Of a DNA stretch of 64,000 nt, positions 7,660 through 30,244 are shown one piece after another. Numbering within the stretch: position 1 is the stretch's first letter; each line of letters opens with the position of its first letter. Source of the DNA: a phage; the NCBI GenBank assembly GCA_036253495.1, contig GCA_036253495.1_4125.1; one strand, 5' to 3'. The notes under the pieces were generated by a model, which worked only from the letters and a program-made list of their open reading frames with translations, searched no databases and had not been told where the DNA came from. The position numbers were made by a program, and so were the translations under genes.

Positions 7660-8181
7660 ATGAACTATAATCAATTATCACAAGAAGATACTGATATTTG
7701 GCTAAAGAACGTAAACAATACGTTGGAACTTGTGCGACAATGTATTTCGGAAGCTGACCGTGTATCAGACGAAGCTAAAGAAAAAACATACAAACACTTT
7801 CACCGTAATATCTTCATGAAAATTTATGCACTTACTATGTATAATATGTACAAACCATCTGATATTTTTATTGGGTTGTATAGTGGGGCGATGTTCACAT
7901 TAGGTGGGATTTTTTCAGATACTGGTCGTACATTAGAACAAAACGAAAAAGATGTTATCGTGGCAGTTGATAAGATTATGAATAAGGAAGTGGATTTCAT
8001 TCTGGAAATCGTTCGTTGCTGGAATGTTTATAGCTCAAAACCATTTGACATTACACAGAAAGATATAGTAGACTATATGCGTATTTTACGTACACATCAG
8101 ATCTGTAAAGAACTATTAACCAATTTAGGGACATATGATGAAACATACAACGTGGTTGAAGATAGCCAGTGTCGTTGCTGA
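7660..8181 (+). CDS. hypothetical protein
   Basis: 173 aa ORF, SD AAAGGAG upstream. Confidence 0.45.
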   Translation: MNYNQLSQEDTDIWLKNVNNTLELVRQCISEADRVSDEAKEKTYKHFHRNIFMKIYALTMYNMYKPSDIFIGLYSGAMFTLGGIFSDTGRTLEQNEKDVIVAVDKIMNKEVDFILEIVRCWNVYSSKPFDITQKDIVDYMRILRTHQICKELLTNLGTYDETYNVVEDSQCRC

Positions 8182-8617
8182 GGAAAGTAAGTGTCTTTCC
8201 CAGAAAGTAGGTTGTGTTATTGTAAAGAATAACCGAGTATTGAGTACTGGATATAACGGTACACCATCAAAGCAACCTAACTGTTGTGATGTTAATAAAC
8301 ATCTCGTAAACAATGGTCAATTTCAAAATTGGATTGATGAAGATGCAAAACACTTACATCACGAGTGGAGCAACATTCATGAGATCCATGCGGAAATGAA
8401 TGCATTACTATATAGTTCACCACAAGAACGTCAGGGTGCAACACTTTACACCACACTCCAACCGTGCTATACTTGTTCTAAGTTAATCGCTGGTAGTGGT
8501 ATTTCTCGTGTAATTTACGAAAAATCGTATCCTCGCACTCCACCAGAAGCTATTAAAGTACTGGAAGATGCTGGGATTATTGTAAATTGTATCTATGATA
8601 ATGGACTCAATAAATGA
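8138..8617 (+). CDS. cd: dCMP deaminase
   Basis: Zinc-binding deaminase motifs HAEMNAL and PCYTCSKLI; N-terminus MKHTTWLKIASVVAEESKC resembles T4 Cd as recalled. Confidence 0.8.
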   Translation: MKHTTWLKIASVVAEESKCLSQKVGCVIVKNNRVLSTGYNGTPSKQPNCCDVNKHLVNNGQFQNWIDEDAKHLHHEWSNIHEIHAEMNALLYSSPQERQGATLYTTLQPCYTCSKLIAGSGISRVIYEKSYPRTPPEAIKVLEDAGIIVNCIYDNGLNK

Positions 8618-18304: not shown

Positions 18305-19051
18305 ATGGATCTTGAAAAACAAACCGAAGCAATCATCACCGAACTAATCAAAATTGGTTATAAATGCCCATTTATCTATGGTTCGTGGAATACTTTTTGT
18401 TTGTATAAGTATGATGACAAATTACCAAATGATATTGATGTTATTAATATAGTACCAGAAGAGTTTGAAGAAGGTGAGTTCTCTGTAAAATTAGATTGTA
18501 TTGATATACCTGTCAATATTGAATGTATGACTCTCAATCATCTTCGTGTCGAATTAATGCGTGGTGATGTTAAATACTATACCATCGGTTTTGGTACTAT
18601 TGTACCGAAATGTGCAAATCATCTTTTGATGTACCTTGGTCATATCGGTTCGGTTATGATGACACGCCGTAACAGTGAGATTCGTAAAATTTGCAGTACT
18701 GCATCAGATAAAGCCTTTAATAAAGGAAAAAAGAAGTTGACAGTACTGGAAGATTACGATAAGATGTTAGGACTAAAGAACATCTGGCATAGCATTCACT
18801 TCATCTATATCATTACGCATTATTACAATCTGTACAGATCCAACACTGAACATGAAATGAATATTGCGTCAATGAAACAAGAGTTTGATGTGCTTGAAAT
18901 GCTGAACATTCGCGACAACATATATAAGATATATGATGAAACATATGGTGATTATCATGTAAAAGCACAAGCTGTTATTGATTATGCGAAACCGATTCGT
19001 AACAAACTGATGACTGAATTTAGAAAATTATACCCCAAGGAGGATGTATGA
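18305..19051 (+). CDS. hypothetical protein with nucleotidyltransferase-like GS...DxD motif
   Basis: YGSWNTFCLYKYDDKLPNDIDVI fits a loose Pol-beta NTase pattern; weak. Confidence 0.4.
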   Translation: MDLEKQTEAIITELIKIGYKCPFIYGSWNTFCLYKYDDKLPNDIDVINIVPEEFEEGEFSVKLDCIDIPVNIECMTLNHLRVELMRGDVKYYTIGFGTIVPKCANHLLMYLGHIGSVMMTRRNSEIRKICSTASDKAFNKGKKKLTVLEDYDKMLGLKNIWHSIHFIYIITHYYNLYRSNTEHEMNIASMKQEFDVLEMLNIRDNIYKIYDETYGDYHVKAQAVIDYAKPIRNKLMTEFRKLYPKEDV

Positions 19052-19114
19052 AAGATACTTTCAGAGGTCGCATGACTTTCCATTAAGGAACTTTAACTTA
19101 ATGGAGAAAATAAT

Positions 19115-19672
19115 ATGTTCTTTGACCAAACATTTACGTTGTACCATGATTCTGGAAAAGTAGAGATTGTTGATAATCTTCTACAATATATTGCTGACCA
19201 CGAAGGGGTTGATCTATTTCACAGCAAAATGAAATTTGATTTATCCGAGTTCAACAAGAAGAATCGTGAATCATTCTGGAAAAATCGTTTCTATTACGAA
19301 ATGTATCCTGAAAAGTTTGTAGGTTATTATCTCTGTACTGAAAAAGGTTTATTAGTATCGCCTGATTTACTTATGGGTGAATACATGGTTCTCTATAATG
19401 AGTACTGGGAACATAAACGTAAGGCCCGTGACACCGAATGGCGACACAAACGCTCTTACATGTACAAGCATAACCATTCTCGCTACAAACGTCCTAAGAC
19501 CCAACAAGAGCGTCGTATGGCGTGTGCAGTACTGAAGGATGATGGTGAACCTGATATTCGTGGAAAACGCAAGATGCGTTCACTACCGACATATTGGGAC
19601 GATTTTAGAACAAGACACAGTACTGGCTGGAAATACAGTACTAAGCGTAAAAAACAATACAAAGGGAGCTAA
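19115..19672 (+). CDS. hypothetical protein with very basic C-terminus
   Basis: 185 aa; C-terminal Arg/Lys-rich segment. Confidence 0.45.
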   Translation: MFFDQTFTLYHDSGKVEIVDNLLQYIADHEGVDLFHSKMKFDLSEFNKKNRESFWKNRFYYEMYPEKFVGYYLCTEKGLLVSPDLLMGEYMVLYNEYWEHKRKARDTEWRHKRSYMYKHNHSRYKRPKTQQERRMACAVLKDDGEPDIRGKRKMRSLPTYWDDFRTRHSTGWKYSTKRKKQYKGS

Positions 19673-19690
19673 TGCTCCCTATTTTTATAG
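19662..19690 (+). terminator. intrinsic terminator (GGGAGC-TAAT-GCTCCC then TATTTTTA)
   Basis: Perfect hairpin overlapping stop codon of 19115-19672. Confidence 0.5.
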
Positions 19691-19700
19691 GTTAAACGTT

Positions 19701-20030
19701 ATGAGCAAAGTTGATGTTGATGTAGTTATTGGCTATATTGAAATTGAACAGTGTTGTATTGATACATTGATTGACACTCTTAATAAGTACCGTGCAGAGT
19801 ACAAGGGTAACATTAGTCTTTCACCGGACGGTGGTTACGGTGGATTCGATGGATACAATGTAATTTGGACACGAGAAGAAACGGATGAAGAATACAATAT
19901 CCGTTTGCAGTTAGAATCACAACGTCGCGAAGAAATTGAACGTCAAGAAATGAAACATTTAATGAACAAGAAATCATTAAGTGCTGAAGAGAAATCTAAA
20001 CTTCTAAAATATATCAAGGATTACATGTAA
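19701..20030 (+). CDS. hypothetical protein
   Basis: ATG at 19701 just after terminator; track ORF 19539 upstream part overlaps previous gene. Confidence 0.4.
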   Translation: MSKVDVDVVIGYIEIEQCCIDTLIDTLNKYRAEYKGNISLSPDGGYGGFDGYNVIWTREETDEEYNIRLQLESQRREEIERQEMKHLMNKKSLSAEEKSKLLKYIKDYM

Positions 20031-20677
20031 TGAAAAATGTAACTCAAGAAAAGATTCTGTATCACGCTAAACATAACGGTTCTTTCAATATTATTAGCCG
20101 AGAATACGTTGGTCATATGGCTAAGTTGATTGATAATTTACTGGAATTTGATTTCCTGAATTGGGAAACTAATGATCTTTGGTATGAATACGCGGGACAG
20201 CAATGGGAACGTGATTATGATAATGCAACACATTCATACACTATCACCAAAGCAGGTGAAGTTCGTTTAGCCATTATGCGTTGTGCATATGCTTACAAAA
20301 ATCACAAAGGTGAAGAAAAACATACTCGTAGAAATGAAGAGCTATTGCTTCTCATGGAATCAGCAAAAATTACAATGCATGATTTGTTCCACCACCCACG
20401 TTGGTATGAAAATCTAACCAAAGCAGAGTACAAAGCGTTGCGTTACATTGATGAACAGAACAAAACGCCAATTTTAGTAGATGAAAGTGACGGTGAACTA
20501 AGCCTCAAATGTGTATTTGACAATTCCAGTACTGAGAGCATTGCTGACATTTCAGTACAAATGGCACTTAAAGCTATGGAACTATTCAAGACGCAATACC
20601 AAGGTACAAATGCCGATGAAATTGAGCGTGAGTTCATTACACGCGTACAGATTGCATTAGCTAAGACCAAAACTTAA
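20030..20677 (+). CDS. hypothetical protein
   Basis: 215 aa, start overlaps upstream stop (TAATG). Confidence 0.45.
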   Translation: MKNVTQEKILYHAKHNGSFNIISREYVGHMAKLIDNLLEFDFLNWETNDLWYEYAGQQWERDYDNATHSYTITKAGEVRLAIMRCAYAYKNHKGEEKHTRRNEELLLLMESAKITMHDLFHHPRWYENLTKAEYKALRYIDEQNKTPILVDESDGELSLKCVFDNSSTESIADISVQMALKAMELFKTQYQGTNADEIEREFITRVQIALAKTKT

Positions 20678-20695
20678 AAACATTGGAAAATAATC

Positions 20696-20881
20696 ATGAA
20701 AAGACTTGCATATGTATTAGTATTAATGTTAATATCATCTTGTTCACTAATGGACTTTAAATACAGTACACAATACTATTCAGTGTTTGAAGAAGCACCA
20801 GATAACTGTTTACTAGAAAGTAATCAGATGTATGTCATTAATGGTGAAACAAAATTACAATACATTTGCAAAGAGGATTAA
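20696..20881 (+). CDS. small lipoprotein
   Basis: Signal peptide with lipobox-like LISSC. Confidence 0.4.
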   Translation: MKRLAYVLVLMLISSCSLMDFKYSTQYYSVFEEAPDNCLLESNQMYVINGETKLQYICKED

Positions 20882-20884
20882 TTC

Positions 20885-21118
20885 ATGAAAAAGATTATCA
20901 TTTCTTGTTTAGTTGCTGGGGCAACCTTACTCGTAGGCTGTGCACCTAAAGTTAACGAGATGGATGCAGAAATGATCCGTAAGGACTTAACTAAACTGAA
21001 TCATAATGGCACACTCTATGCCTGTCATGAGATGCGACACGGACAGGATCTAAATCTTATGTGTCGCAAAATTGTTAACCGCAAACGCTTAACAACAGTC
21101 CCAAAGGATGCTCAATGA
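20885..21118 (+). CDS. small lipoprotein
   Basis: Signal peptide with lipobox LVGC. Confidence 0.45.
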   Translation: MKKIIISCLVAGATLLVGCAPKVNEMDAEMIRKDLTKLNHNGTLYACHEMRHGQDLNLMCRKIVNRKRLTTVPKDAQ

Positions 21119-21140
21119 AAGACGTAATGGGATATAAACT

Positions 21141-21500
21141 ATGAGTGATTATGTTGCATTCCTACATCGTTTTGGTAAAGCTGAAGAAAAGCACATCATT
21201 CGTCTACCAGCTTATGGTGAGAAAGACTGGTACAAAAGTACTATCAGTGTAGGTGCATTCCGTGACCGTGAAGCTGAATTCTTTCTCGGTAAACAACATG
21301 AACGAGAGGTACTTTGCTCCCTTTGGCGTTTAGACGAATGGGATGAAGAGAATGCAAGAACTGCGGTATCAATGCTTAAAATTGTTGGCATTGAGAACTA
21401 TCAGCACCCATATGATCTCTTACCTACGTTTGAACATGCTTCGTTATTTGACTTTTACAAAGCAATAGGGTACGATTATAAAAAGAAACGTTACATTTGA
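21141..21500 (+). CDS. hypothetical protein
   Basis: 119 aa ORF. Confidence 0.45.
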   Translation: MSDYVAFLHRFGKAEEKHIIRLPAYGEKDWYKSTISVGAFRDREAEFFLGKQHEREVLCSLWRLDEWDEENARTAVSMLKIVGIENYQHPYDLLPTFEHASLFDFYKAIGYDYKKKRYI

Positions 21501-21507
21501 GGATATC

Positions 21508-22125
21508 ATGACAACATCACAAAAGTACTGGTGGATTTTGGGACACCCTGAATTTATCAATAAAGACTACGTTGATGCTCGCATTGATGTTGAGCCACAC
21601 GATGTATGTCCCATCACCAATCGTATTGAAGATTATCCGGTACTGAATACAAAAACACAGTACTGGATCGAAATGCTAACTCCGTTTTTCGATGAAGACG
21701 AAGGGAAGTTCGTTCGTGGACATGAGTACGAGTTGGATTGTGGTGGTGATACATATGAAGAAGCAATTGATAATTTATACACCAAGATCCTAGAAAAGTA
21801 TGGTGATTACACACAAGAAGAAGCGGAAGCTAAGTATGATGCTGTACATCAGCGTGTAGTGACGAAAAGTGCTTTTCCTTCATCAATGTTCCAACCAGAA
21901 GAACTTCGTAACACATGGGAGAACTCAAAATTATCTGAAATTGAACTTGATTATATTCCAGGTGATATTGAAAACATTAAAGGTACAATAAAAGCCTTGA
22001 AAGAATTCCTCAAAACTTGTACAATAGAAGAACAAGAAGAGGCAAACAAACATTTACAATCAGAGGAATGTAAACTATGGGTGCTTGAGGAATCACTTAG
22101 AAAAGGTATAGACTACAACATATGA
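21508..22125 (+). CDS. hypothetical protein
   Basis: 205 aa ORF. Confidence 0.45.
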   Translation: MTTSQKYWWILGHPEFINKDYVDARIDVEPHDVCPITNRIEDYPVLNTKTQYWIEMLTPFFDEDEGKFVRGHEYELDCGGDTYEEAIDNLYTKILEKYGDYTQEEAEAKYDAVHQRVVTKSAFPSSMFQPEELRNTWENSKLSEIELDYIPGDIENIKGTIKALKEFLKTCTIEEQEEANKHLQSEECKLWVLEESLRKGIDYNI

Positions 22126-22490
22126 ACCCGAAATTGCTTAAACTGGTAGAAGAACTCCGTGAGATGCCGCCGATTGAACAAGTCGGTAATTACAAACGGT
22201 ATAGAGTAATTGCTCGTGCACTGGATAAGAAAGGTCGAGTACTGGCTACTCGTACCAACTCTTACACACAGACTCACCCTAAGCAGAAAGGCTTTGCAAT
22301 TCGTGCGGGTCGCCCTCAAGGGGAATTTTTACACGCTGAAATTTCGTGTCTTCTTGCTGCTCGTGCTGAAGTACATACTCTTCTTATCGCTCGTGTAAGT
22401 AAAGATGGAATTCCAGTTCCAGCAAAACCTTGTGAGATTTGTACATTAGCAATTCAGGAGTACGGGGTAAAAGAGATTATCCATACATGA
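22122..22490 (+). CDS. small cytidine-deaminase-fold protein
   Basis: HAE...PCxxC zinc-binding pattern (FLHAEISCLLAA ... KPCEICTLAI) in 122 aa; start overlaps upstream stop. Confidence 0.5.
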   Translation: MNPKLLKLVEELREMPPIEQVGNYKRYRVIARALDKKGRVLATRTNSYTQTHPKQKGFAIRAGRPQGEFLHAEISCLLAARAEVHTLLIARVSKDGIPVPAKPCEICTLAIQEYGVKEIIHT

Positions 22491-22708
22491 AAATTGAACG
22501 ATATCAGCACCATACTGTACTGTTTGGTGAATCAATAATGTACTATTATATTTTTGAGCCAAAACATTCGTTACAAATAACTATATACGAAAATGGTAAA
22601 TTTAAAGATACCAATTTCCCATTACATGAATTGGCATTATATTCCAGTACTGATCACTTTAAGCATTTAGTATTTGTATATTGTATTCCAAATGAAAACG
22701 AGGAATAA
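22487..22708 (+). CDS. hypothetical protein
   Basis: ATG at 22487 overlapping upstream stop. Confidence 0.35.
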   Translation: MKIERYQHHTVLFGESIMYYYIFEPKHSLQITIYENGKFKDTNFPLHELALYSSTDHFKHLVFVYCIPNENEE

Positions 22709-22710
22709 CT

Positions 22711-23121
22711 ATGTTAGAAGATGAGTTTCTAAAATTAAGTAGAAAGATATTTGATATACTAGGTGATGAAACAGATTTCAATCTAAGCGATAAAGATATC
22801 CCATTGGAAGATGGTGGTTTCTTTTTCGCATTTGGATCTACGTATAATCTGGATATTTCAAAGCCTATCAGTGATGATAGTGATTATACTGCAACAACAT
22901 ATTTTGATTTCCAGCTTAATGGACACAAAGAGCGTTTACTAACGTACAGACGTAAAGGTAGTTTCAATAGAACCGAGATTACATTAATGGATTTTGAGAA
23001 ACGCATCGAACTCGCGAAGAAACATCCATTCATCAGTACTCATGCGTTTAATAGGCTAATCGATCTATTAGACAGTTATCCAGAGACAATACGAGGGTCA
23101 TTACGTTTAAATGCAGATTGA
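22711..23121 (+). CDS. hypothetical protein
   Basis: 136 aa ORF. Confidence 0.45.
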   Translation: MLEDEFLKLSRKIFDILGDETDFNLSDKDIPLEDGGFFFAFGSTYNLDISKPISDDSDYTATTYFDFQLNGHKERLLTYRRKGSFNRTEITLMDFEKRIELAKKHPFISTHAFNRLIDLLDSYPETIRGSLRLNAD

Positions 23122-23296
23122 AATTTTAAAAAAAGAATATGATGGTGAAAGTCTATATGATATCCAAAGAGATGTGCATGAAGCTTTTGATTCAAGATTT
23201 AACCCATTAGCTGAACAAATCCCACAAGATGAATATGGCTTCCAACAAGGTACATTTACTGTAACTATTACATGGAGTCCAGATAAGACTAATTAA
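23111..23296 (+). CDS. hypothetical small protein
   Basis: 61 aa ORF overlapping previous gene end. Confidence 0.35.
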   Translation: MQIEILKKEYDGESLYDIQRDVHEAFDSRFNPLAEQIPQDEYGFQQGTFTVTITWSPDKTN

Positions 23297-23398
23297 ACTA
23301 TTCATTGGTTGCAGTGCAATTGCAATTTATATGTTATGCCCAGCACCAATTAACACTGTTATGCTAATATGGTCAGTTGTTATTTTGTCTATTCTATA

Positions 23399-23425
23399 AA
23401 GCACCCAAGTGGTGCTTTTTGTGTT
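23399..23425 (+). terminator. intrinsic terminator (AGCACC-CAAGT-GGTGCT then TTTTGTG)
   Basis: Perfect stem-loop in intergenic region before nrdD. Confidence 0.55.
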
Positions 23426-23554
23426 TGTACAGTACTTAATCAATTGCACTTTTCCTTGATTTAGGTCAAGAGAAAAAGGCCAATATGAGGCTATAATGCT
23501 CTTTGTTGAAGTTAAATAAATTCACCCAAACGAATAACATACAAGGAATGTGAA

Positions 23555-24496
23555 ATGCAAATAGATAAATTATATACGGACGTAACTAACTTCCTCAACC
23601 AGAGTAACGCTGATTTAACAAATGAAAATGCAAATAAAGACGCTAAATGTGTTAATACACATCGTGATTTATTGGCAGGTATTCTTTCTAAACATTATTC
23701 CCAAGATGTGATTCCTGATGAATTGATGAAGTGGCATAATGAAGGTTACGGTCATATTCATGATTTAGACTATTACATTAGCCCATTAACAAACTGTTGT
23801 TTAGTTAATTATCCTGATATGCTTGCTAATGGCTTCATGATTGGTTGTGCCAAGATTGAAGAACCAAAAAGCTTTGGGGTAGCTTGTACAGTACTAACAC
23901 AGATTGTTCAGGCTGTGGCAAGTTCACAGTACGGTGGTCAGTCGTTGGCTCACATTGACACTGGCCTTGCACCATATGTACAAAAGTCATGGGATAAACT
24001 TCTAGAAAAACAAAAGAAATACAATCTTAGTACTGAATTCATCGAAGATGAGTTGCGTAAGGAAGTTTATGACGGTTGTCAAACAATTCTATATCAAACA
24101 AACTCAATGATCAGTACTAATGGTCAGGCTGCGTTCATTTCTTTGAGTTTAGGATTAGGTACATCTAAATTTGAAAAACTAATCACTGAACAATATTTGA
24201 AAGTACATGAAAATGGACTAGGTAAAGATAAGATTACTCCAGTATTTCCTAAAGTAATATTCTTTCTTCAGGATGGAATTAATATGAATACCAATGATAC
24301 TAACTATGATCTTAAACAGTTAGCTATGCGTTGTGCATCAAAAAGAATCTATCCAGACTTTGTTTCTGTACCATTGAACCATAAAGTAACTGGAAGTACC
24401 AGTACTGCTGTTACTCCTATGGGATGCAGAAGCTTCTTAGGTAAATGGGAAGATGAAAATGGCAACGAACAGTACAATGGCCGTTTCAATTTGGGT
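23555..24496 (+). CDS. nrdD: anaerobic ribonucleoside-triphosphate reductase NrdD, exon 1
   Basis: N-terminal NrdD-like region ending ...PMGCRSFLGKWEDENGNEQYNGRFNLG, matching the E. coli NrdD segment PMGCRSFLG...NLG recalled from memory; exon end placed at T24496. Confidence 0.72.
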
Positions 24497-25666
24497 AGAC
24501 ATACATGCCCCATTGCTGAGTGATCAGTAATTGCAAACACGTTAACATGCTGGAACCCCCTAAAGCCATAAACACTACAACGCAATCTTAATAGATAAAC
24601 GTGAATGTTACGAGAGTAGAAAAAAGTTTTATGGATATATAATAAGTTGTAAATCATATTATATGTACAATGGGAAATCAGCAGCCAAGCCATCATTAAT
24701 ATAATGGTGGAAGGTTCAACGAGTATAATACGTGACTCTAATATTAAAACTTCCATAAATAATATTTTATGGAGGATATATAATGAGAAAAGGAAGTATA
24801 TATAAAATAGAATGTATAGTAACTAATAAAGTTTATATTGGACAAACCGTTTTATATCCACCGATGAAAAGATGGGTGGAACACTGCCAAAACAATGATG
24901 AAAAATCATGTATTAGTAAAGCTATTAAAAAATTTGGTTTTGAAAATTTCACATTTCAAATTTTAAAAACTAATATTGATTTAAATAATCTTAATGATGA
25001 AGAAATAAAATATATTGAAATTTATGATAGTTATAAGAATGGTTACAACTCAACATTAGGTGGTCACCAAACCTTTAATGGAAGTAAAATAACTGAACTT
25101 GATGCTATAAAAATTATAGAATATATTAAATCATATAAAGATCTTTCATTCGTAGAAATAGCAAAAACTTTAAATGTTCCATACGGCTGTGTAAGTGATA
25201 TAAATTGTGGCGAAACTTGGTATCAAATAAATGAAACATACCCTATTAGAGATAACAAAAGAAATAAGATTGAAGATAATATAGATTCAATTTATGAGTT
25301 ATTGAGAAATGGTGTTTCTAGTATAGAAATTGCAAAAATATATAATGTTTCAAATGTCACCATTTGTAACGTTAATAATGGAACAATCTATCGAAACGAA
25401 TCAGTTGAATACCCAATTTTTAAACCACAAAATTCATCAAAACGACATTCTATTGAAATAGTTTCTAAGATTATTGATATGTTAATTAATACAGATAAAA
25501 ATTATTCTGAAATTGCAAAATGTTTAAATGTAGGAAGAAAAACTGTTGCAAATATCAATAACGGTTCTGGATATAAAGAACTATCAAATGAACTTGGTTA
25601 TATATCATTTCCTCTTCGTTAGAGTATGGTGTACTCTAATCCTTCATGAAAGTGAAGGTACAAATG
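24497..25666 (+). mobile_element. group I intron interrupting nrdD, carrying a GIY-YIG homing endonuclease ORF
   Basis: Exon ends in U; P-like ATGCTGGAA (24546), Q-like AATCAGCAGCC (24675), R-like GTTCAACGAG (24713); GACTCTAA (24735) pairs with TTAGAGT (25621) as P7; P9-like hairpin CCTTCA-TGAAAG-TGAAGG; terminal G at 25666; spliced product reads GRFNLG|VVSINLP in frame. Confidence 0.65.
24783..25622 (+). CDS. GIY-YIG homing endonuclease (intron-encoded)
   Basis: N-terminal IYKIECIVTNKVYIGQT (GIY-x10-YIG); SD GGAGG upstream; located inside nrdD intron. Confidence 0.8.
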   Translation: MRKGSIYKIECIVTNKVYIGQTVLYPPMKRWVEHCQNNDEKSCISKAIKKFGFENFTFQILKTNIDLNNLNDEEIKYIEIYDSYKNGYNSTLGGHQTFNGSKITELDAIKIIEYIKSYKDLSFVEIAKTLNVPYGCVSDINCGETWYQINETYPIRDNKRNKIEDNIDSIYELLRNGVSSIEIAKIYNVSNVTICNVNNGTIYRNESVEYPIFKPQNSSKRHSIEIVSKIIDMLINTDKNYSEIAKCLNVGRKTVANINNGSGYKELSNELGYISFPLR

Positions 25667-26530
25667 GTTGTCTCAATCAACCTACCGCTAATTGCTCTTG
25701 AAAGCACTACTGATGGTGATTTCTTTGATAAGATAGATGAGCATATGAACATTGCATACAGAGCACAGATGAACCGTGTAGAGCGTTTAAAAGGTACTAA
25801 GGCTAAACAGAACCCGATTCTGTTCATGGAAGGTGCTCTTGCACGTCTTGATGCAGAAGAAACTATTGACAAACTCTTCTACGATGGTTATGCTAGTATT
25901 AGTATTGGTTATGTAGGATTAGTTGAATGTTCAGAGATTTTGACTGGTTCAATCAGTAAAGAGTTCTGTATGTCAGTACTGAATTATATGAAAGTCAAAT
26001 GCGATGAGTTCAAAAAAGAGAGTAACATAGCTTTTAGTCTATATGGAACCCCAGCAGAGTCACTTTGCTACAAATTTGCACGTTGCATCGAATCTAAGTA
26101 CCCTTCAGTACTAAAACGTGATTACATCACAAATTCCTTCCATCAACCAGTATGGGTAGAAAGTTCACCATTTGATAAGTGGAGTTACGAAGAGGGCTTT
26201 GCTTACCTCAGCAATGGAGGAAACATCAGTTATGTGGAATCACCCAACCTAAGTAACAATATTCAAGCACTTGAGACTTTAGTCAATTACGCTTACACAA
26301 AGATTCCATATTTTGGCATCAACCAGCCAATTGACCAGTGTTTCGAGTGTGGGTATAAAGGTGAGTTCAGTGTAGATAAACACGGTTTTCATTGTCCAGT
26401 ATGTGATAATCGCAATGAGAAGACAATCTCAGTGATTCGTCGTGTTTCTGGATATTTGGGGAACCCATCGTCTCGTGGATTCAACAAAGGCAAACAACAA
26501 GAATGTTGTGAGCGTATACAACACAAATAA
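25667..26530 (+). CDS. nrdD: anaerobic ribonucleoside-triphosphate reductase NrdD, exon 2
   Basis: VVSINLPLIALE...; C-terminal Zn ribbon CFECG...CPVCDN and glycyl-radical motif RRVSGYLG. Confidence 0.75.
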   Translation, partial: VVSINLPLIALESTTDGDFFDKIDEHMNIAYRAQMNRVERLKGTKAKQNPILFMEGALARLDAEETIDKLFYDGYASISIGYVGLVECSEILTGSISKEFCMSVLNYMKVKCDEFKKESNIAFSLYGTPAESLCYKFARCIESKYPSVLKRDYITNSFHQPVWVESSPFDKWSYEEGFAYLSNGGNISYVESPNLSNNIQALETLVNYAYTKIPYFGINQPIDQCFECGYKGEFSVDKHGFHCPVCDNRNEKTISVIRRVSGYLGNPSSRGFNKGKQQECCERIQHK

Positions 26531-26538
26531 GGTACATT

Positions 26539-26871
26539 ATGGATTTAAAGCCAATTGTAGTTAACAAATATAAAGAACCATATGATGTGTATATTGGTCG
26601 TGGGTCTAAATGGGGAAATCCATTTACCCACATTAATGACAAACAAACAAAGGCAGAGTTTATAGTTCCGACACGAGAAGAGTCGATTGAGAAGTTCAGA
26701 GAGTATCTTATCCAAAGAATTGAAAATGGTGAGGTTACTATCGAAGAACTACTTGAATTGGCTGGGAAGCGTCTTGGGTGCTTTTGTAAGCCAAAATCAT
26801 GTCATGGTGATGTTCTTGTAGAAATAGTGAGTGCAATATTAGATGAATTACCAGACGATAATCAAGGATGA
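26539..26871 (+). CDS. hypothetical conserved protein (CxC...C.H motif)
   Basis: 110 aa; YIGRGSKWGNPF and LGCFCKPKSCHGD motifs; family not assigned. Confidence 0.45.
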   Translation: MDLKPIVVNKYKEPYDVYIGRGSKWGNPFTHINDKQTKAEFIVPTREESIEKFREYLIQRIENGEVTIEELLELAGKRLGCFCKPKSCHGDVLVEIVSAILDELPDDNQG

Positions 26872-27322
26872 TTTAGTCAATGGAGAGGGAGTTAGATGCT
26901 CCCTTTTTGTTTCAGGGTGTAGCCACGGATGTGAAGAATGCTTCAACGAAAAAGCATGGGATTATCGCAGTGGGGAAGTATTCAGTACTGAAACAGTTGA
27001 AATCATCCTGAATGAACTTAACAAGCCATATGTACAAGGATTATCCCTTTTAGGTGGTGATCCATTGATGCCAAAGAATATCAGTACTGTTATTGAGTTA
27101 TGTAAAGTAGTAAAAGAAAAATATCCAAATAAAGATATTTGGTGCTGGAGTGGTTATACTTTAGAGGAAATAATAAATAATCATGCCTCCGCAATACTAG
27201 AGTACATTGATGTATTAGTTGATGGTAAATTTATTCTTGAAGAAAAGAATTTAGAATTACCATTTAGAGGCTCTAATAATCAACGTATTCTTCGTAAAGG
27301 AGTAGATTATGCGTTATCTTGA
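26843..27322 (+). CDS. nrdG: anaerobic ribonucleotide reductase activating protein NrdG
   Basis: Radical-SAM activase N-terminus DDLVNGEGVRCSLFVSGCSHGCEECFN; overlaps upstream gene by 29 nt. Confidence 0.75.
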   Translation: MNYQTIIKDDLVNGEGVRCSLFVSGCSHGCEECFNEKAWDYRSGEVFSTETVEIILNELNKPYVQGLSLLGGDPLMPKNISTVIELCKVVKEKYPNKDIWCWSGYTLEEIINNHASAILEYIDVLVDGKFILEEKNLELPFRGSNNQRILRKGVDYALS

Positions 27323-27467
27323 TATTATTTCTGAAAAGATACAGAAACGTGGAAATGAGTGGGTTGTTACTGACCACACAGGGAAGAAAGTTCTCGGTCG
27401 TCACCCAACCAGAAAAGAAGCACTTAAACAATTAAGAGCAGTTGAATTTTCTAAACACGGCGGTTAA
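27309..27467 (+). CDS. small hypothetical protein (52 aa)
   Basis: ATG at 27309 after GGAG; not in ORF track (<60 aa); followed by terminator. Confidence 0.25.
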   Translation: MRYLDIISEKIQKRGNEWVVTDHTGKKVLGRHPTRKEALKQLRAVEFSKHGG

Positions 27468-27471
27468 TATG

Positions 27472-27500
27472 AAGAAGCACCCTTTGGGTGCTTTTTTTAT
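27472..27500 (+). terminator. intrinsic terminator (GAAGCACCC-TTT-GGGTGCTT then T7)
   Basis: Strong hairpin plus U-tract at end of early block. Confidence 0.65.
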
Positions 27501-27505
27501 ACTAT

Positions 27506-27513
27506 TATAAATA
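27506..27513 (+). promoter_or_regulatory. late-promoter-like TATAAATA box
   Basis: Exact TATAAATA about 30 nt upstream of tail-fibre gene start 27545. Confidence 0.5.
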
Positions 27514-27544
27514 CACTATGGATATCTAGATAAAAGGGATATAT

Positions 27545-30244
27545 ATGGCAAAGAAAATATATGGTGGCATTGATGTTACACATAATGTAACAGTCAAAGG
27601 TAAGAGAAGTGTTCAGAGCATCAATGATAACGTATTTGATGAAAATGGCAATCTCACAATAGATGCATATACACAAGATGATATGCTGGAAATGGTTGGT
27701 ATGTTACCCATTTCTCGTTATGGTACACAAAACTATCTACCTGCTGGTGTCAATGGTACAACAGTTGGTTCTTCAGAAAATGCTAGTTCCAGAAATACAA
27801 AATTATTTTTGGAAGATGATAACACTTTAGTAATGTTACGTCCGGGTACTAATGGAAGTTCACAGGGGATTTATTATAGTTATATGACCCAGGCGGTTGG
27901 TACAACAAATACAAGTCGTATGGTTAATACTACTCGTGCATATAAACCAAATTATTTTGGTGCTGGGTATGCAGTTTATTTGTATCCAAGCAGTGATGAT
28001 ATTACTTGTGGTTTGGTGAGAACTGAAAATTCTGATGGTACATATATTGATAGAGTTTTTGTTTCAGTCAATAATGGTACTATGAATGATACAATGCACA
28101 CTGGTATTATTCTATCAGACCATACAGCCGTACAACCTTTTGGTGCAATACAATTTGTTATTCGTGCTGAAGATGGTTCATTATACTTTTTCAGTTTAGA
28201 TACACCAAGCAATACTCTTAAAATATCCGTTACTAAAGTTACTTTTAGTCCAAGTAATAACCCAGGTGGTGGTACTTATAGTGTTACTAGAATTACTGGT
28301 TGGGCCACAAGAACTTTTTATAATGCAATGGTATATGATGACAATATTGTTCCAACTATGAAAATAAATTCAACAAATACCAATGATAATCCATACGTTT
28401 TAATTCCAAGTGGTATTATTGGGTTTGGTGTTTATATGACAGATCCAGATTTATATGTTGCACAGAAATCTGGTACATCCGAATTCAGATTTAGATTATG
28501 TGGTGATATGTGGATGACAAATGGACGATATGACACACGCCCACAACATGGTTTTAGTATGACTTTTGATGTTGTGACAAAACAATGTAAATTAGATAAT
28601 ATGTTAACGACTACACCAGTTGCTGTTAATGACACGGGTTCAAGTATGAATGTAACGGGTCAATGCATAACAAAAGATCCATTTTATCTTCACGCGGGTC
28701 TGCGTAATATTTTTAGTAATTATTGCTATGTACCATCAACTGGTGATGCATTTTGTTCATTCTCACCAAACCTCGCAGAAGCATTGAACTTATCATATGC
28801 GAAATATCCACCACAGTCATTGTTTAATTTAATGAATGTTAGAAGTGTATCAGCAACTAATTTTATTAATGGTGTAGTATCACCAAGATTTGGTTCAGCA
28901 GTTGGTTCATACCAAGTAGGTGTAGAGTTATTACCAAATAACAGTACTAAACAATATTCAAGACGTTCTGGTGATGGTCGTTTTTATCCATCCTATGCTG
29001 TACATAAAGCTACACCGAACTTCACATTTAAGTCTCTAGACTATGGTACTGTTCCTGGTTATGAACCAACACCAGACCGAGCGTTTATAACTACACCAGA
29101 ATCTAGAATTTTTATAAGTTCAATTTCTGGATCAACGGTAACGACTAATGGTGGTGTTTTGGTGGCTGATAATAGAACATCAACTCCTATTAGTTTTGAT
29201 TATAAAGGTAATGTACTGAATAATGGTACAATCAGTATGTCTCAAGATATAATGAATGCTATTCGAAATTCCGAATTTGCTAAAGTTGCTAGTTCATGGA
29301 ATATATCACCAGAATCAATAAAAACATTATCTGTATTTGTTCCACAACAAACTGATATTCCTGTTTTTGGTGTTCTTGCAGCATCTACTACAGCCCGTGG
29401 TCTATATATTCGAGTTGTTGAATTGAATGTCAATACAAGAACTGGTGATATTACAACGTGGTCGTTCAAACGTTTAGTACATGAAAGTGTTCAAGCTGGG
29501 GATTACAAAACAGATACCGCATATCATCTTGATAGTGGAAGTATTGGTATTACTATATATGATGCGGGTTCTTTCTACTTCATTGGTGGTGGTATTCCTG
29601 GTTTCTTTAATACAGTTGGTAATACAAACTCTCCATTTTTCCGTGCTACAGTGGATAAAGCGACAGCCCAATTTAATAATTTCCATATAGCTGGTGGACG
29701 TCCGATCTATGCATTAGATGGTCAACCATTCGCTTTACCTAACATTGGGTTTGGTATTCTTCAAAGTATAGATAATAATAACAAAACAATTTTTAGAACA
29801 TATGGTACAACATTAGCGGATTATAATGCATGGACTGATAAAGGAAATCCAGTTATATGTCTTGTTTCCCAAGATGTTGCTCAAGGTTTTATTATATACT
29901 TCACCGAAGAGACACCAGTACTGATATCCGGTAAACACTATACATTACCAATATCAAATATAGATTTAACAACTGTGAAAGCAAATCCTGCCAATACTAC
30001 ATTTTATGTGTATATTAAATTAGTACAGGGTATTGCAAACTATCATATATCAACAACTGAATTAGCTGAAACTCATTCAATATTCTGGATTGGTACAGTG
30101 AAAACTGATAATTTACAAATAACCGAAATTAATATAGAAAAACGTTCTCGTTTAGACCTGTTTGGTTCATCATTCAACGCTGCCGGAAGTTCCTTCCCAG
30201 TAAGTTCTGGGTTCCCTTCAAGTTCTGGTAATGTGAATTGGTAA
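27545..30244 (+). CDS. tail fibre-like protein (899 aa)
   Basis: Large late ORF; shares N-terminal motif (D.M...LP.SR.G.Q.YLP...NGT) with 30856-33597 and C-terminal ~130-aa module with both neighbours. Confidence 0.55.
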   Translation: MAKKIYGGIDVTHNVTVKGKRSVQSINDNVFDENGNLTIDAYTQDDMLEMVGMLPISRYGTQNYLPAGVNGTTVGSSENASSRNTKLFLEDDNTLVMLRPGTNGSSQGIYYSYMTQAVGTTNTSRMVNTTRAYKPNYFGAGYAVYLYPSSDDITCGLVRTENSDGTYIDRVFVSVNNGTMNDTMHTGIILSDHTAVQPFGAIQFVIRAEDGSLYFFSLDTPSNTLKISVTKVTFSPSNNPGGGTYSVTRITGWATRTFYNAMVYDDNIVPTMKINSTNTNDNPYVLIPSGIIGFGVYMTDPDLYVAQKSGTSEFRFRLCGDMWMTNGRYDTRPQHGFSMTFDVVTKQCKLDNMLTTTPVAVNDTGSSMNVTGQCITKDPFYLHAGLRNIFSNYCYVPSTGDAFCSFSPNLAEALNLSYAKYPPQSLFNLMNVRSVSATNFINGVVSPRFGSAVGSYQVGVELLPNNSTKQYSRRSGDGRFYPSYAVHKATPNFTFKSLDYGTVPGYEPTPDRAFITTPESRIFISSISGSTVTTNGGVLVADNRTSTPISFDYKGNVLNNGTISMSQDIMNAIRNSEFAKVASSWNISPESIKTLSVFVPQQTDIPVFGVLAASTTARGLYIRVVELNVNTRTGDITTWSFKRLVHESVQAGDYKTDTAYHLDSGSIGITIYDAGSFYFIGGGIPGFFNTVGNTNSPFFRATVDKATAQFNNFHIAGGRPIYALDGQPFALPNIGFGILQSIDNNNKTIFRTYGTTLADYNAWTDKGNPVICLVSQDVAQGFIIYFTEETPVLISGKHYTLPISNIDLTTVKANPANTTFYVYIKLVQGIANYHISTTELAETHSIFWIGTVKTDNLQITEINIEKRSRLDLFGSSFNAAGSSFPVSSGFPSSSGNVNW

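What the first reader, a model, noticed from the sequence alone, without database searches (positions are those of the whole stretch)
22122..22490. Second, small cytidine-deaminase-fold protein besides dCMP deaminase
The 122-aa protein has the HAE...PCxxC zinc-binding signature with the expected spacing but no similarity to the cd gene at 8138-8617 outside the motif. Small deaminases of this fold include tRNA and nucleic-acid editing enzymes, so it could act on nucleotides, tRNA or DNA.
Basis: partly seen in the sequence, partly recalled or inferred. Interest (0 to 1): 0.45.

Follow-up and report, generated by a model that had tools for sequence, protein, structure and literature searches.

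The report
Minimal, strongly basic phage cytosine deaminase
The 122-residue gene is a real, catalytically intact zinc deaminase from a large, so far uncharacterised, phage-only family of very small and very basic relatives of dCMP deaminase (phiKZ gp260 is a member); it probably deaminates a cytosine deoxynucleotide to supply thymidylate synthesis, but the true substrate is untested.

Summary
The ORF at 22122-22490 (+) encodes 122 aa with H71-A-E73 and P103-C-E-I-C107, and it passes Pfam PF00383. The window is an Asteriusvirus jumbo coliphage, about 97% identical to phage A4. Relatives already annotate this gene as "dCMP deaminase", and the CBB phage paper notes two CMP/dCMP deaminases.

The family view is new here. 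The protein belongs to a large family (892 cluster representatives at E<=1e-10) of 96-166 aa proteins. Members occur in Rak2-like jumbo phages, phiKZ (gp260), cyanophages, and Aeromonas, Xanthomonas and Limnohabitans phages.

The family is homologous to canonical dCMP deaminase (hhalign 98.7%). It lacks the G-Y/W-N-G allosteric motif, the Cys-rich insert, and the C-terminal helix-4/beta-5. It has its own signature (N-S-Y-x-K-T-H-P-x-Q, invariant R91). It is uniformly basic: median pI 9.6, against 6.4-6.9 for canonical cd.

It is the only such deaminase in phiKZ, Aeromonas 2L372X and Xanthomonas DES1, all of which have a thymidylate synthase. It also repeatedly sits beside a canonical cd, so the two are probably not redundant.

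Best guess: an unregulated cytosine-(deoxy)nucleotide deaminase (about 0.5). A polynucleotide substrate is the main rival (about 0.2).

The parts
22122..22490 (+). ORF of the small deaminase (122 aa plus stop). Homologue of A4_486, 121Q gp490 and phiKZ gp260.
   Evidence: Pfam PF00383 30 bits. AF2 pLDDT 91.
22332..22340 (+). Codons for H71-A72-E73: a Zn ligand and the catalytic proton-shuttle Glu, at the start of helix 2.
   Evidence: Sequence. E73 is invariant and H71/A72 at least 90% conserved in the family. Helix 72-80 in the model.
22428..22442 (+). Codons for P103-C104-E-I-C107: the two Cys Zn ligands, at the start of helix 3.
   Evidence: Sequence. C104 and C107 are invariant. Helix 105-113 in the model.
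22257..22286 (+). Family signature N46-S-Y-T-Q-T-H52-P53-K-Q55 (consensus N-S-Y-x-K-T-H-P-x-Q). It follows strand 2 and leads into an inserted helix (53-61). It replaces the G-Y/W-N-G allosteric motif of canonical dCMP deaminases.
   Evidence: Column counts: N46 156/158, H52 143, P53 143, Q55 140. hhalign alignment to cd.
22392..22394 (+). Codon for R91, a nearly invariant Arg at the end of strand 3. It opens a family-specific 10-residue loop (R91...G96...P103) next to the Zn site.
   Evidence: R in 155/158 members and G96 in 138/158. This segment has no counterpart in the cd profile.
21508..22125 (+). Upstream 205-aa ORF of unknown function (PHROG 16370). Its stop overlaps the deaminase start (ATGA), suggesting translational coupling. 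It is conserved only in Rak2-like phages.
   Evidence: Neighbour cluster 'unk16' occurs in 5 Rak2-like loci.
8138..8617 (+). Canonical dCMP deaminase (cd) of the same phage: 159 aa, G-Y-N-G motif, Cys-rich insert, C-terminal helix-4/beta-5 region, pI 7.6.
19663..19680 (+). Terminator-like hairpin upstream of the densely packed + strand gene block 20030-23296 that contains the deaminase.
   Evidence: a consensus scan only.
23398..23418 (+). Terminator-like hairpin closing that gene block, just before nrdD.
   Evidence: a consensus scan only.

Best explanation
The gene encodes an active zinc-dependent cytosine deaminase. It belongs to a phage-restricted 'mini' branch of the dCMP-deaminase clade, of which phiKZ gp260 is a member. 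Shown here: it keeps the His/Cys/Cys Zn site, the catalytic Glu, and the Asn that binds the sugar in related enzymes. It has lost the allosteric G-Y/W-N-G site, the Cys-rich insert (which carries the second Zn site in T4 cd, from my own knowledge of that structure) and the C-terminal helix-4/beta-5. Inferred: it hydrolytically deaminates a cytosine deoxynucleotide (dCMP, possibly dCDP or dCTP) to the uracil nucleotide. That would add an unregulated dUMP supply for the phage thymidylate synthase, alongside the dCTP/dTTP-regulated canonical cd. The two enzymes would differ in regulation or in the phosphorylation state of the substrate. Also inferred: like other small deaminases, it probably works as a homo-oligomer whose neighbouring subunits complete the pocket.
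For: Catalytic residues are invariant across the family. The fold is confirmed. The closest solved sequences by profile are dCMP deaminases from S. mutans, cyanophage S-TIM5 and T4. Profile-profile homology to the canonical cd family is 98.7%, E 3e-16. NCBIfam hits among members are led by the dCTP/dCMP deaminase models. Whole-genome scans show it is the only CDA-fold protein in phiKZ, Aeromonas phage 2L372X and Xanthomonas phage DES1. Each of these encodes a thymidylate synthase and RNR. In 73 dereplicated viral loci the recurrent neighbours are replication and nucleotide-metabolism genes: 5'-3' exonuclease, DnaB, PolA, RNR, ThyX, NrdD, cd and ligase. In the window it lies 1 kb upstream of nrdD/nrdG. 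Relatives are annotated as dCMP deaminase.
Against: No activity has been measured for any family member that I could find. The protein co-occurs with a canonical cd in Rak2-like phages, in Limnohabitans phage DC31, and in 9 of 124 viral loci (5 dereplicated groups); the two genes lie side by side in five of those loci. Plain redundancy is therefore unlikely. The C-terminal ~32 residues that canonical dCMP deaminases carry are absent. The allosteric motif is absent too. The family is uniformly very basic, with median pI 9.6 and net +9, against 6.4-6.9 and about 0 for canonical cd (p 1e-34). A mononucleotide enzyme does not need that. No NCBIfam equivalog threshold is reached.
Confidence: 0.5

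Rival explanations
1. It is a polynucleotide cytosine deaminase acting on ssDNA or RNA, of host or phage origin. In this reading the missing C-terminus leaves the pocket open on both sides of the target nucleotide, and the basic surface binds the backbone. Possible roles are host-genome damage or shut-off (C-to-U followed by uracil excision), RNA editing, or diversification.
For: The basic charge is conserved across the whole family: 89-91% of members have pI above 9, and none of 120 canonical cd relatives do. There is a nearly invariant Arg91 and many conserved Lys/Arg positions. No C-terminal lid is present. The phiKZ homologue gp260 has a primary TSS in early-infection dRNA-seq (PMC8244752). 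A preprint shows that phage proteins annotated as dCMP deaminases deaminate ssDNA as well as mononucleotides in vitro (bioRxiv 10.1101/2024.12.05.627091).
Against: There is no direct evidence. The enzymes in that preprint are of the 154-aa canonical type, not this family. Phages without a nucleus or modified DNA would expose their own replicating ssDNA. The Pfam toxin-deaminase model MafB19 scores 13 bits, below its 27-bit cut-off. Gene neighbourhoods are metabolic and replicative rather than host-takeover cassettes. Being the sole deaminase in thymidylate-synthase phages fits metabolism better.
Confidence: 0.2
2. It deaminates a different small molecule. Candidates are free cytidine or deoxycytidine (a Cdd-like salvage step feeding the phage thymidine kinase), a C5-modified cytosine nucleotide (5-methyl- or 5-hydroxymethyl-dCMP), or another pyrimidine or pterin-like base.
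For: The top Foldseek PDB matches are tetrameric cytidine deaminases and blasticidin-S deaminase. Of 149 members, 25 and 12 hit the two NCBIfam cytidine deaminase models weakly. Relatives that have a tail show a CDA-like beta4-beta5 hairpin. The window encodes a thymidine kinase, by A4 annotation. Related phage phAPEC6 has a C5-cytosine methyltransferase. 5mC-selective phage deaminases exist.
Against: The Zn ligand is His, not the Cys of tetrameric Cdd. TIGR01354 scores 14 bits against a 113-bit cut-off. No thyA-like dCMP methylase or hydroxymethylase lies next to the gene here. The basic charge is unexplained. Phages 2L372X and DES1 carry the gene without an annotated tk.
Confidence: 0.15
3. 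It is a partner or regulatory subunit that forms hetero-oligomers with the canonical cd (as ADAT3 does with ADAT2), or a TadA-like tRNA deaminase for phage or host tRNAs.
Confidence: 0.07

Closest known systems
Canonical dCMP deaminases (T4 Cd 1vq2, cyanophage S-TIM5 dCD 4p9c, S. mutans ComEB-type 2hvv, and the window's own cd)
   Same: They share the HAE...PCxxC Zn site, the Asn after strand 2, and the order alpha1-beta1-beta2-insert-alpha2-beta3-alpha3-beta4. The N-to-H spacing of 25 residues matches S-TIM5, counted from the aligned sequence printed. These are the best profile matches, and hhalign gives 98.7%. Both kinds sit in a nucleotide-metabolism context.
   Different: The small protein has no G-Y/W-N-G allosteric motif and no Cys-rich insert. 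It lacks the last ~32 residues (helix 4 and beta 5). It has an extra R91...G96 loop before PCxxC. Its pI is 9.6 against about 6.5. It is 100-125 aa long against 140-190 aa.
Homotetrameric cytidine deaminases and blasticidin-S deaminase (e.g. 4wif, 1ux1, 2z3j)
   Same: Similar size (120-135 aa). They are the top Foldseek PDB matches, TM about 0.5-0.57. Family members that carry a tail have the same beta4-beta5 hairpin topology.
   Different: Those enzymes use Cys-Ala-Glu with three Cys ligands and a C-terminal segment that closes a neighbour's pocket. Here the ligand is His, and the window protein stops at beta 4. TIGR01354 scores 14 of 113 bits.
Phage 'dCMP deaminases' with 5mC/5hmC and ssDNA activity (mSCD-B5; bioRxiv 10.1101/2024.12.05.627091)
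   Same: Phage-encoded PF00383/PF14437 proteins annotated as dCMP deaminases. Their real substrate range is broader than the annotation suggests.
   Different: mSCD-B5 is 154 aa with the canonical PBCV-1 bi-DCD-like fold. It is linked to a thyA-like dCMP methylase. No such neighbour is present here.
TadA / ADAT tRNA adenosine deaminases
   Different: The small protein has no C-terminal helices for anticodon-loop binding. The TadA NCBIfam model is not matched by the window protein.

Membership tests
Zinc-dependent CDA-fold deaminase superfamily (Pfam PF00383) | [H/C]-A-E motif at the start of helix 2 (Zn ligand plus catalytic Glu) | tested here: met
   H71-A72-E73 is present. E73 is invariant and H71/A72 at least 90% conserved in the family.
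Zinc-dependent CDA-fold deaminase superfamily (Pfam PF00383) | P-C-x-x-C motif at the start of helix 3 (two Zn ligands), about 25-35 residues after the Glu | tested here: met
   P103-C-E-I-C107 is present, with 29 residues between E73 and P103. C104 and C107 are invariant.
Zinc-dependent CDA-fold deaminase superfamily (Pfam PF00383) | Score above the curated Pfam gathering cut-off | tested here: met
   30.0 bits against a 25-bit cut-off, E 5e-7. All 149 family members scanned hit PF00383.
Zinc-dependent CDA-fold deaminase superfamily (Pfam PF00383) | Three-layer alpha/beta/alpha core with order beta1-beta2-alpha2-beta3-alpha3-beta4 | tested here: met
dCMP deaminase (EC 3.5.4.12; T4 Cd / DCTD / ComEB type) | Closest sequence-profile relationship | tested here: met
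   The best PDB profile hits are dCMP deaminases, 1e-5 to 2e-4. hhalign to the cd family gives 98.7%, E 3e-16.
dCMP deaminase (EC 3.5.4.12; T4 Cd / DCTD / ComEB type) | G-[Y/W]-N-G allosteric (dCTP/dTTP) motif after strand 2 | tested here: not met
   The window protein has T-R-T-N-S-Y and the family consensus is G-x-N-S-Y-x-K-T-H-P. The window's cd has G-Y-N-G.
dCMP deaminase (EC 3.5.4.12; T4 Cd / DCTD / ComEB type) | C-terminal helix 4 and parallel strand 5 after strand 4 (about 30 residues) | tested here: not met
   The protein ends 1 residue after strand 4. The alignment to cd stops at cd residue 127 of 159. Relatives with tails have a hairpin, not helix 4.
dCMP deaminase (EC 3.5.4.12; T4 Cd / DCTD / ComEB type) | Cys/His-rich insert between strand 2 and helix 2 (structural Zn in T4-type enzymes) | tested here: not met
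   The only Cys residues are C76, C104 and C107. The insert is a short helix, 53-61.
dCMP deaminase (EC 3.5.4.12; T4 Cd / DCTD / ComEB type) | Curated NCBIfam equivalog threshold (ComEB TIGR02571, 219 bits) | tested here: not met
   The window protein has no hit. 27 of 149 members hit only weakly, best E 7e-6.
dCMP deaminase (EC 3.5.4.12; T4 Cd / DCTD / ComEB type) | Deamination of dCMP to dUMP | not testable with these tools
   This needs an enzyme assay.
Homotetrameric cytidine deaminase (Cdd, TIGR01354) | C-A-E motif (three Cys ligands) and the model threshold of 113.65 bits | tested here: not met
   The motif here is H-A-E. The score is 14.4 bits, E 0.034.
TadA tRNA adenosine(34) deaminase (NF008113) | Model threshold (150 bits) and C-terminal helices that hold the anticodon loop | tested here: not met
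   The window protein has no hit at E<=1. 12 of 149 members hit weakly. The model has no C-terminal helices.
Polymorphic-toxin nucleic-acid deaminases (MafB19, DddA, SsdA types) | Family model above threshold, and a toxin-delivery or immunity context | tested here: not met
   The window protein has N46, S, Y, H52, P53, Q55, R91 and AKPCEIC, ends at T122, and has pI 9.67. The one departure from the signature is Q50 in place of the consensus Lys.

The most novel reading that the evidence does not exclude
The phiKZ gp260-like family would be the smallest natural nucleic-acid cytosine deaminases (about 100-125 aa). In this reading phages use them on ssDNA or RNA during infection. The canonical cd next to them handles mononucleotides, which would explain why the two co-occur. 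They would then also be candidate ultra-compact base-editor domains.
Probability: 0.2. Interest if true: 0.75.

Novelty: new variant of a known kind. Interest (0 to 1): 0.42.

Why it matters
Databases label this gene 'dCMP deaminase' by domain match alone. The label hides a large, coherent, phage-only subfamily that lacks the regulatory and C-terminal parts of real dCMP deaminases and carries an unexplained strong positive charge. The model phage phiKZ has a member (gp260) as its only deaminase of this fold.

If the enzymes are unregulated nucleotide deaminases, they show how phages bypass dTTP feedback control of dUMP supply. If they act on polynucleotides, they would be a new phage weapon or editing activity, and the most compact deaminase scaffold known. 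Either way, a simple substrate screen would settle the annotation of at least 892 protein clusters (50%-identity representatives at E<=1e-10).

Tried and rejected
- **Single-sequence PDB search:** it found nothing meaningful. Only the family profile found relatives.
- **Obligate partner gene:** the window's flanking ORFs have no Pfam hits and only unknown-function PHROGs. Three metagenomic contigs and 73 dereplicated viral loci share no constant neighbour.
- **Substrate-contact residues:** the S-TIM5 dCMP-deaminase structure paper is not held, and a text search found nothing usable. Contact residues could not be mapped, and model coordinates are not exposed.
- **Jumbo-phage comparative review (PMC7824862):** it does not mention deaminases.
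- **The search for related loci with the 149-sequence alignment:** it failed for lack of a conserved stretch. The 17-sequence alignment and a degenerate DNA pattern worked.
- **Cellular genomes:** the pattern scan gave 35 hits, about the number expected by chance (my own arithmetic). Only 10 are true members.
- **tRNA link:** rejected as unsupported. The window has no tRNA genes, and none are annotated in 2L372X or DES1.
- **Rfam:** no match in 19000-28000.

Full report
**1. The observation**

The ORF at 22122..22490 on the + strand is present and encodes 122 residues. H71-A-E73 is encoded at 22332-22340 and P103-C-E-I-C107 at 22428-22442.

The match is not a chance motif.
- The protein scores 30 bits on Pfam PF00383 (cut-off 25, E 5e-7).
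- It scores E 5.8e-13 on PHROG 174, 'dCMP deaminase'.
- An AlphaFold2 model built from 17 homologues has mean pLDDT 91. Its order is helix 3-14, strands 28-34 and 40-45, helix 53-61, helix 72-80 (HAE), strand 86-92, helix 105-113 (PCxxC), strand 118-121. The chain then ends.

The gene at 8138-8617 is a canonical dCMP deaminase. It scores 77.5 bits on PF00383 and carries a G-Y-N-G motif.

**2. Where the window comes from, and what is already annotated**

The region is about 97% identical to Escherichia phage A4 (Asteriusvirus, 355 kb). It is 83-85% identical to the 121Q/PBECO4 group.

The protein is 100% identical to A4_486, which is annotated 'dCMP deaminase'. It is 92-96% identical to proteins across the genus; some are annotated dCMP deaminase and most are 'hypothetical'.

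[quoted passage not shown] The existence of a second deaminase is therefore already on record. I found no experimental study of it.

**3. The family**

tblastn finds relatives in 196 phage records:
- Rak2-like jumbo phages of Escherichia, Klebsiella, Salmonella, Erwinia, Yersinia, Serratia, Pectobacterium and Xanthomonas;
- phiKZ-like Pseudomonas phages (the phiKZ gene is PHIKZ260);
- T4-like cyanophages;
- 115-139 kb Aeromonas phages;
- Ralstonia RP13, Cobetia Carin-5, Salicola SCTP-2, Limnohabitans DC31 and Xanthomonas DES1.

A profile search of 1.84 billion cluster representatives finds 4024 proteins at E<=1e-3 and 892 at E<=1e-10. The best 150 are 96-166 aa long.

Across 158 aligned members, E73, C104 and C107 are invariant. 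N46, H52, P53, H71, A72, R91 and P103 are at least 90% conserved. The consensus signature is N-S-Y-x-K-T-H-P-x-Q ... L-H-A-E ... R ... G ... A-K-P-C-x-I-C ... Y-T.

About 40% of members end within two residues of the position matching T122. The rest carry an 8-15 residue tail. In a modelled example (P0246, pLDDT 92) the tail forms a beta4-beta5 hairpin rather than helix 4.

The family is essentially viral.
- The same pattern gave 35 hits in 596 Gb of species-representative bacterial and archaeal genomes. That is roughly the chance expectation for the pattern (my own arithmetic, about 35).
- Only 10 of those 35 are true members. All lie on MAG contigs of 58.5 kb or less, and none lies on an isolate chromosome.

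**4. Relationship to known deaminases**

The family profile hits dCMP deaminases first among solved structures: S. mutans 2hvv 1.1e-5, cyanophage S-TIM5 4p9c 3.4e-5, T4 1vq2 2e-4. TadA-like proteins follow at about 6e-3.

hhalign between the small family and 70 relatives of the window's cd gives 98.7% probability, E 3e-16, over 104 columns. Small-family residues 5-121 align to cd residues 3-127 of 159. The two window proteins are therefore homologous throughout, not only at the motifs.

The differences are systematic.
- The small family lacks the G-Y/W-N-G allosteric motif.
- It lacks the Cys-rich insert.
- It lacks the last ~32 residues (helix 4 and strand 5).
- It has an extra loop between strand 3 and PCxxC, bracketed by R91 and G96.

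No curated equivalog model is reached. Weak NCBIfam hits among 149 members are split between anti-phage dCTP deaminase (55), ComEB (27), tetrameric cytidine deaminase (25 and 12) and TadA (12). Foldseek ranks tetrameric cytidine deaminases and blasticidin-S deaminase first, at TM about 0.5.

I therefore treat this as a distinct minimal branch of the dCMP/dCTP-deaminase clade. It is not a member of any characterised enzyme family.

**5. An unexpected family-wide property**

The window protein has pI 9.67 and net charge +8, against pI 7.6 and +1 for the cd of the same phage.

For 224 family members the median pI is 9.62 and the median net charge +9; 89% have pI above 9. For 120 relatives of the canonical cd the median pI is 6.4 (6.9 for the 70 most divergent), and none exceeds 9. 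Mann-Whitney p is 1e-34.

Many positions are conserved as Lys or Arg. A mononucleotide enzyme does not obviously need this. The charge is the main reason to keep a polyanionic substrate (nucleic acid, or a triphosphate) in play.

**6. Genomic context and phyletic pattern**

In the window the gene lies in a tightly packed + strand block (20030-23296) between two terminator-like hairpins. Its ATG overlaps the stop of an upstream 205-aa ORF of unknown function (ATGA). nrdD/nrdG follow 1 kb downstream. cd, DNA ligase, PhoH and tk lie in the same 50 kb. The immediate neighbours have no Pfam domains.

In 73 dereplicated viral loci no neighbour is constant. The recurrent ones are replication and nucleotide-metabolism genes:

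| Neighbour | Loci |
|---|---|
| 5'-3' exonuclease | 10 |
| DnaB | 8 |
| PhoH | 8 |
| DUF6433 | 7 |
| PolA | 6 |
| Metallophosphoesterases (three clusters) | 6, 6, 5 |
| RNR small subunit | 5 |
| ThyX | 5 |
| NrdD | 5 |
| Canonical cd | 5 |
| Primase-like | 5 |
| Nucleoside 2-deoxyribosyltransferase-like | 4 |
| DNA ligase | 4 |

Motif and HMM scans of genomes gave two patterns.
- **Sole deaminase.** The small deaminase is the only CDA-fold protein in Aeromonas phage 2L372X (with ThyX, RNRs and Dut), in Xanthomonas phage DES1 (with ThyX and RNR), and in phiKZ (with ThyA gp235, Dcd-like gp214/217, Tmk, DHFR and RNR).
- **Paired with cd.** Limnohabitans phage DC31 (first 50 kb of 76 kb scanned) has a canonical cd and the small deaminase one gene apart. 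Several metagenomic phages have them adjacent, with overlapping stop and start codons in L142 and L084. Rak2-like phages, including this window, carry both.

phiKZ gp260 has a primary transcription start in early-infection dRNA-seq (PMC8244752).

**7. Interpretation**

Shown:
- it is a real, conserved gene;
- it has an intact Zn-deaminase active site;
- it is homologous to dCMP deaminase;
- it has lost the regulatory and C-terminal elements;
- it belongs to a phage-only family with strong positive charge;
- it sits in replication and nucleotide-metabolism modules;
- it is sometimes the sole deaminase and sometimes paired with cd.

Inferred: the most economical reading is a cytosine-(deoxy)nucleotide deaminase that supplies dUMP without dCTP/dTTP control, or that works at a different phosphorylation level than cd. 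This explains its presence as the only deaminase in thymidylate-synthase phages. It also allows non-redundant coexistence with the regulated cd. I put this at about 0.5.

The basic surface and the open C-terminus fit polynucleotide deamination. So does the demonstration that phage 'dCMP deaminases' can act on ssDNA (bioRxiv 10.1101/2024.12.05.627091). I put this rival at about 0.2.

Nucleoside or modified-nucleotide substrates get about 0.15. Roles as a cd partner or tRNA deaminase get about 0.07. A catalytically dead decoy is unlikely, given the invariant catalytic residues.

**8. Verdict**

The gene is already annotated in relatives, and the pair of deaminases has been noted in print.

The new content is the delimitation of a large, uncharacterised, minimal and basic phage deaminase family, whose annotation as 'dCMP deaminase' rests on a domain match alone. 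That is moderately interesting, and it is cheaply testable.

Noticed in passing
window 23555-26530: nrdD is split in this phage. ORF 23555..24523 matches NRDD profile positions 1-283, and ORF 25646..26530 matches positions 280-562 plus the glycyl-radical domain. A GIY-YIG/HTH homing-endonuclease-like ORF (24783..25622) lies between them. In phage A4 nrdD is a single 1806-bp ORF. No Rfam group I intron reaches threshold, so this may be a gene split by a free-standing endonuclease, or an unrecognised intron.
   Followed up: partly
window 21500-21508 (compare L001:4539-5342): Phage A4 has an extra 267-aa ORF (A4_484, no Pfam hit). It lies between the homologues of window ORFs 21141..21500 and 21508..22125. 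It is absent from the window, an indel just upstream of the deaminase operon partner.
   Followed up: partly
L015:33684-34729 (Limnohabitans phage DC31); L142:8373-9115; L084:2719-3461: In unrelated phages the canonical cd and the small deaminase are adjacent, and in L142 and L084 their stop and start codons overlap. In two of these loci (L142, L117) they lie beside a DUF6433 protein and a 5'-3' exonuclease; L120 has the same pair next to the small deaminase without a cd.
   Followed up: partly
L196:46758-47117 (phiKZ PHIKZ260): The phiKZ homologue has H-S-E instead of H-A-E. It is the only CDA-fold protein in the phiKZ genome, and it is unannotated in the reference record AF399011.
   Followed up: yes
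L156:9329-11792 (Synechococcus phage Sf-CH8): In this cyanophage the small deaminase is followed by three 2OG-Fe(II) oxygenase genes and preceded by a helicase. This context differs from that in the jumbo phages.
   Followed up: no
window 8138-8617: UniRef names the canonical cd of Asteriusvirus phages 'tRNA-specific adenosine deaminase'. That looks like a misannotation, given its G-Y-N-G motif and strong dCMP-deaminase profile hits.
   Followed up: partly
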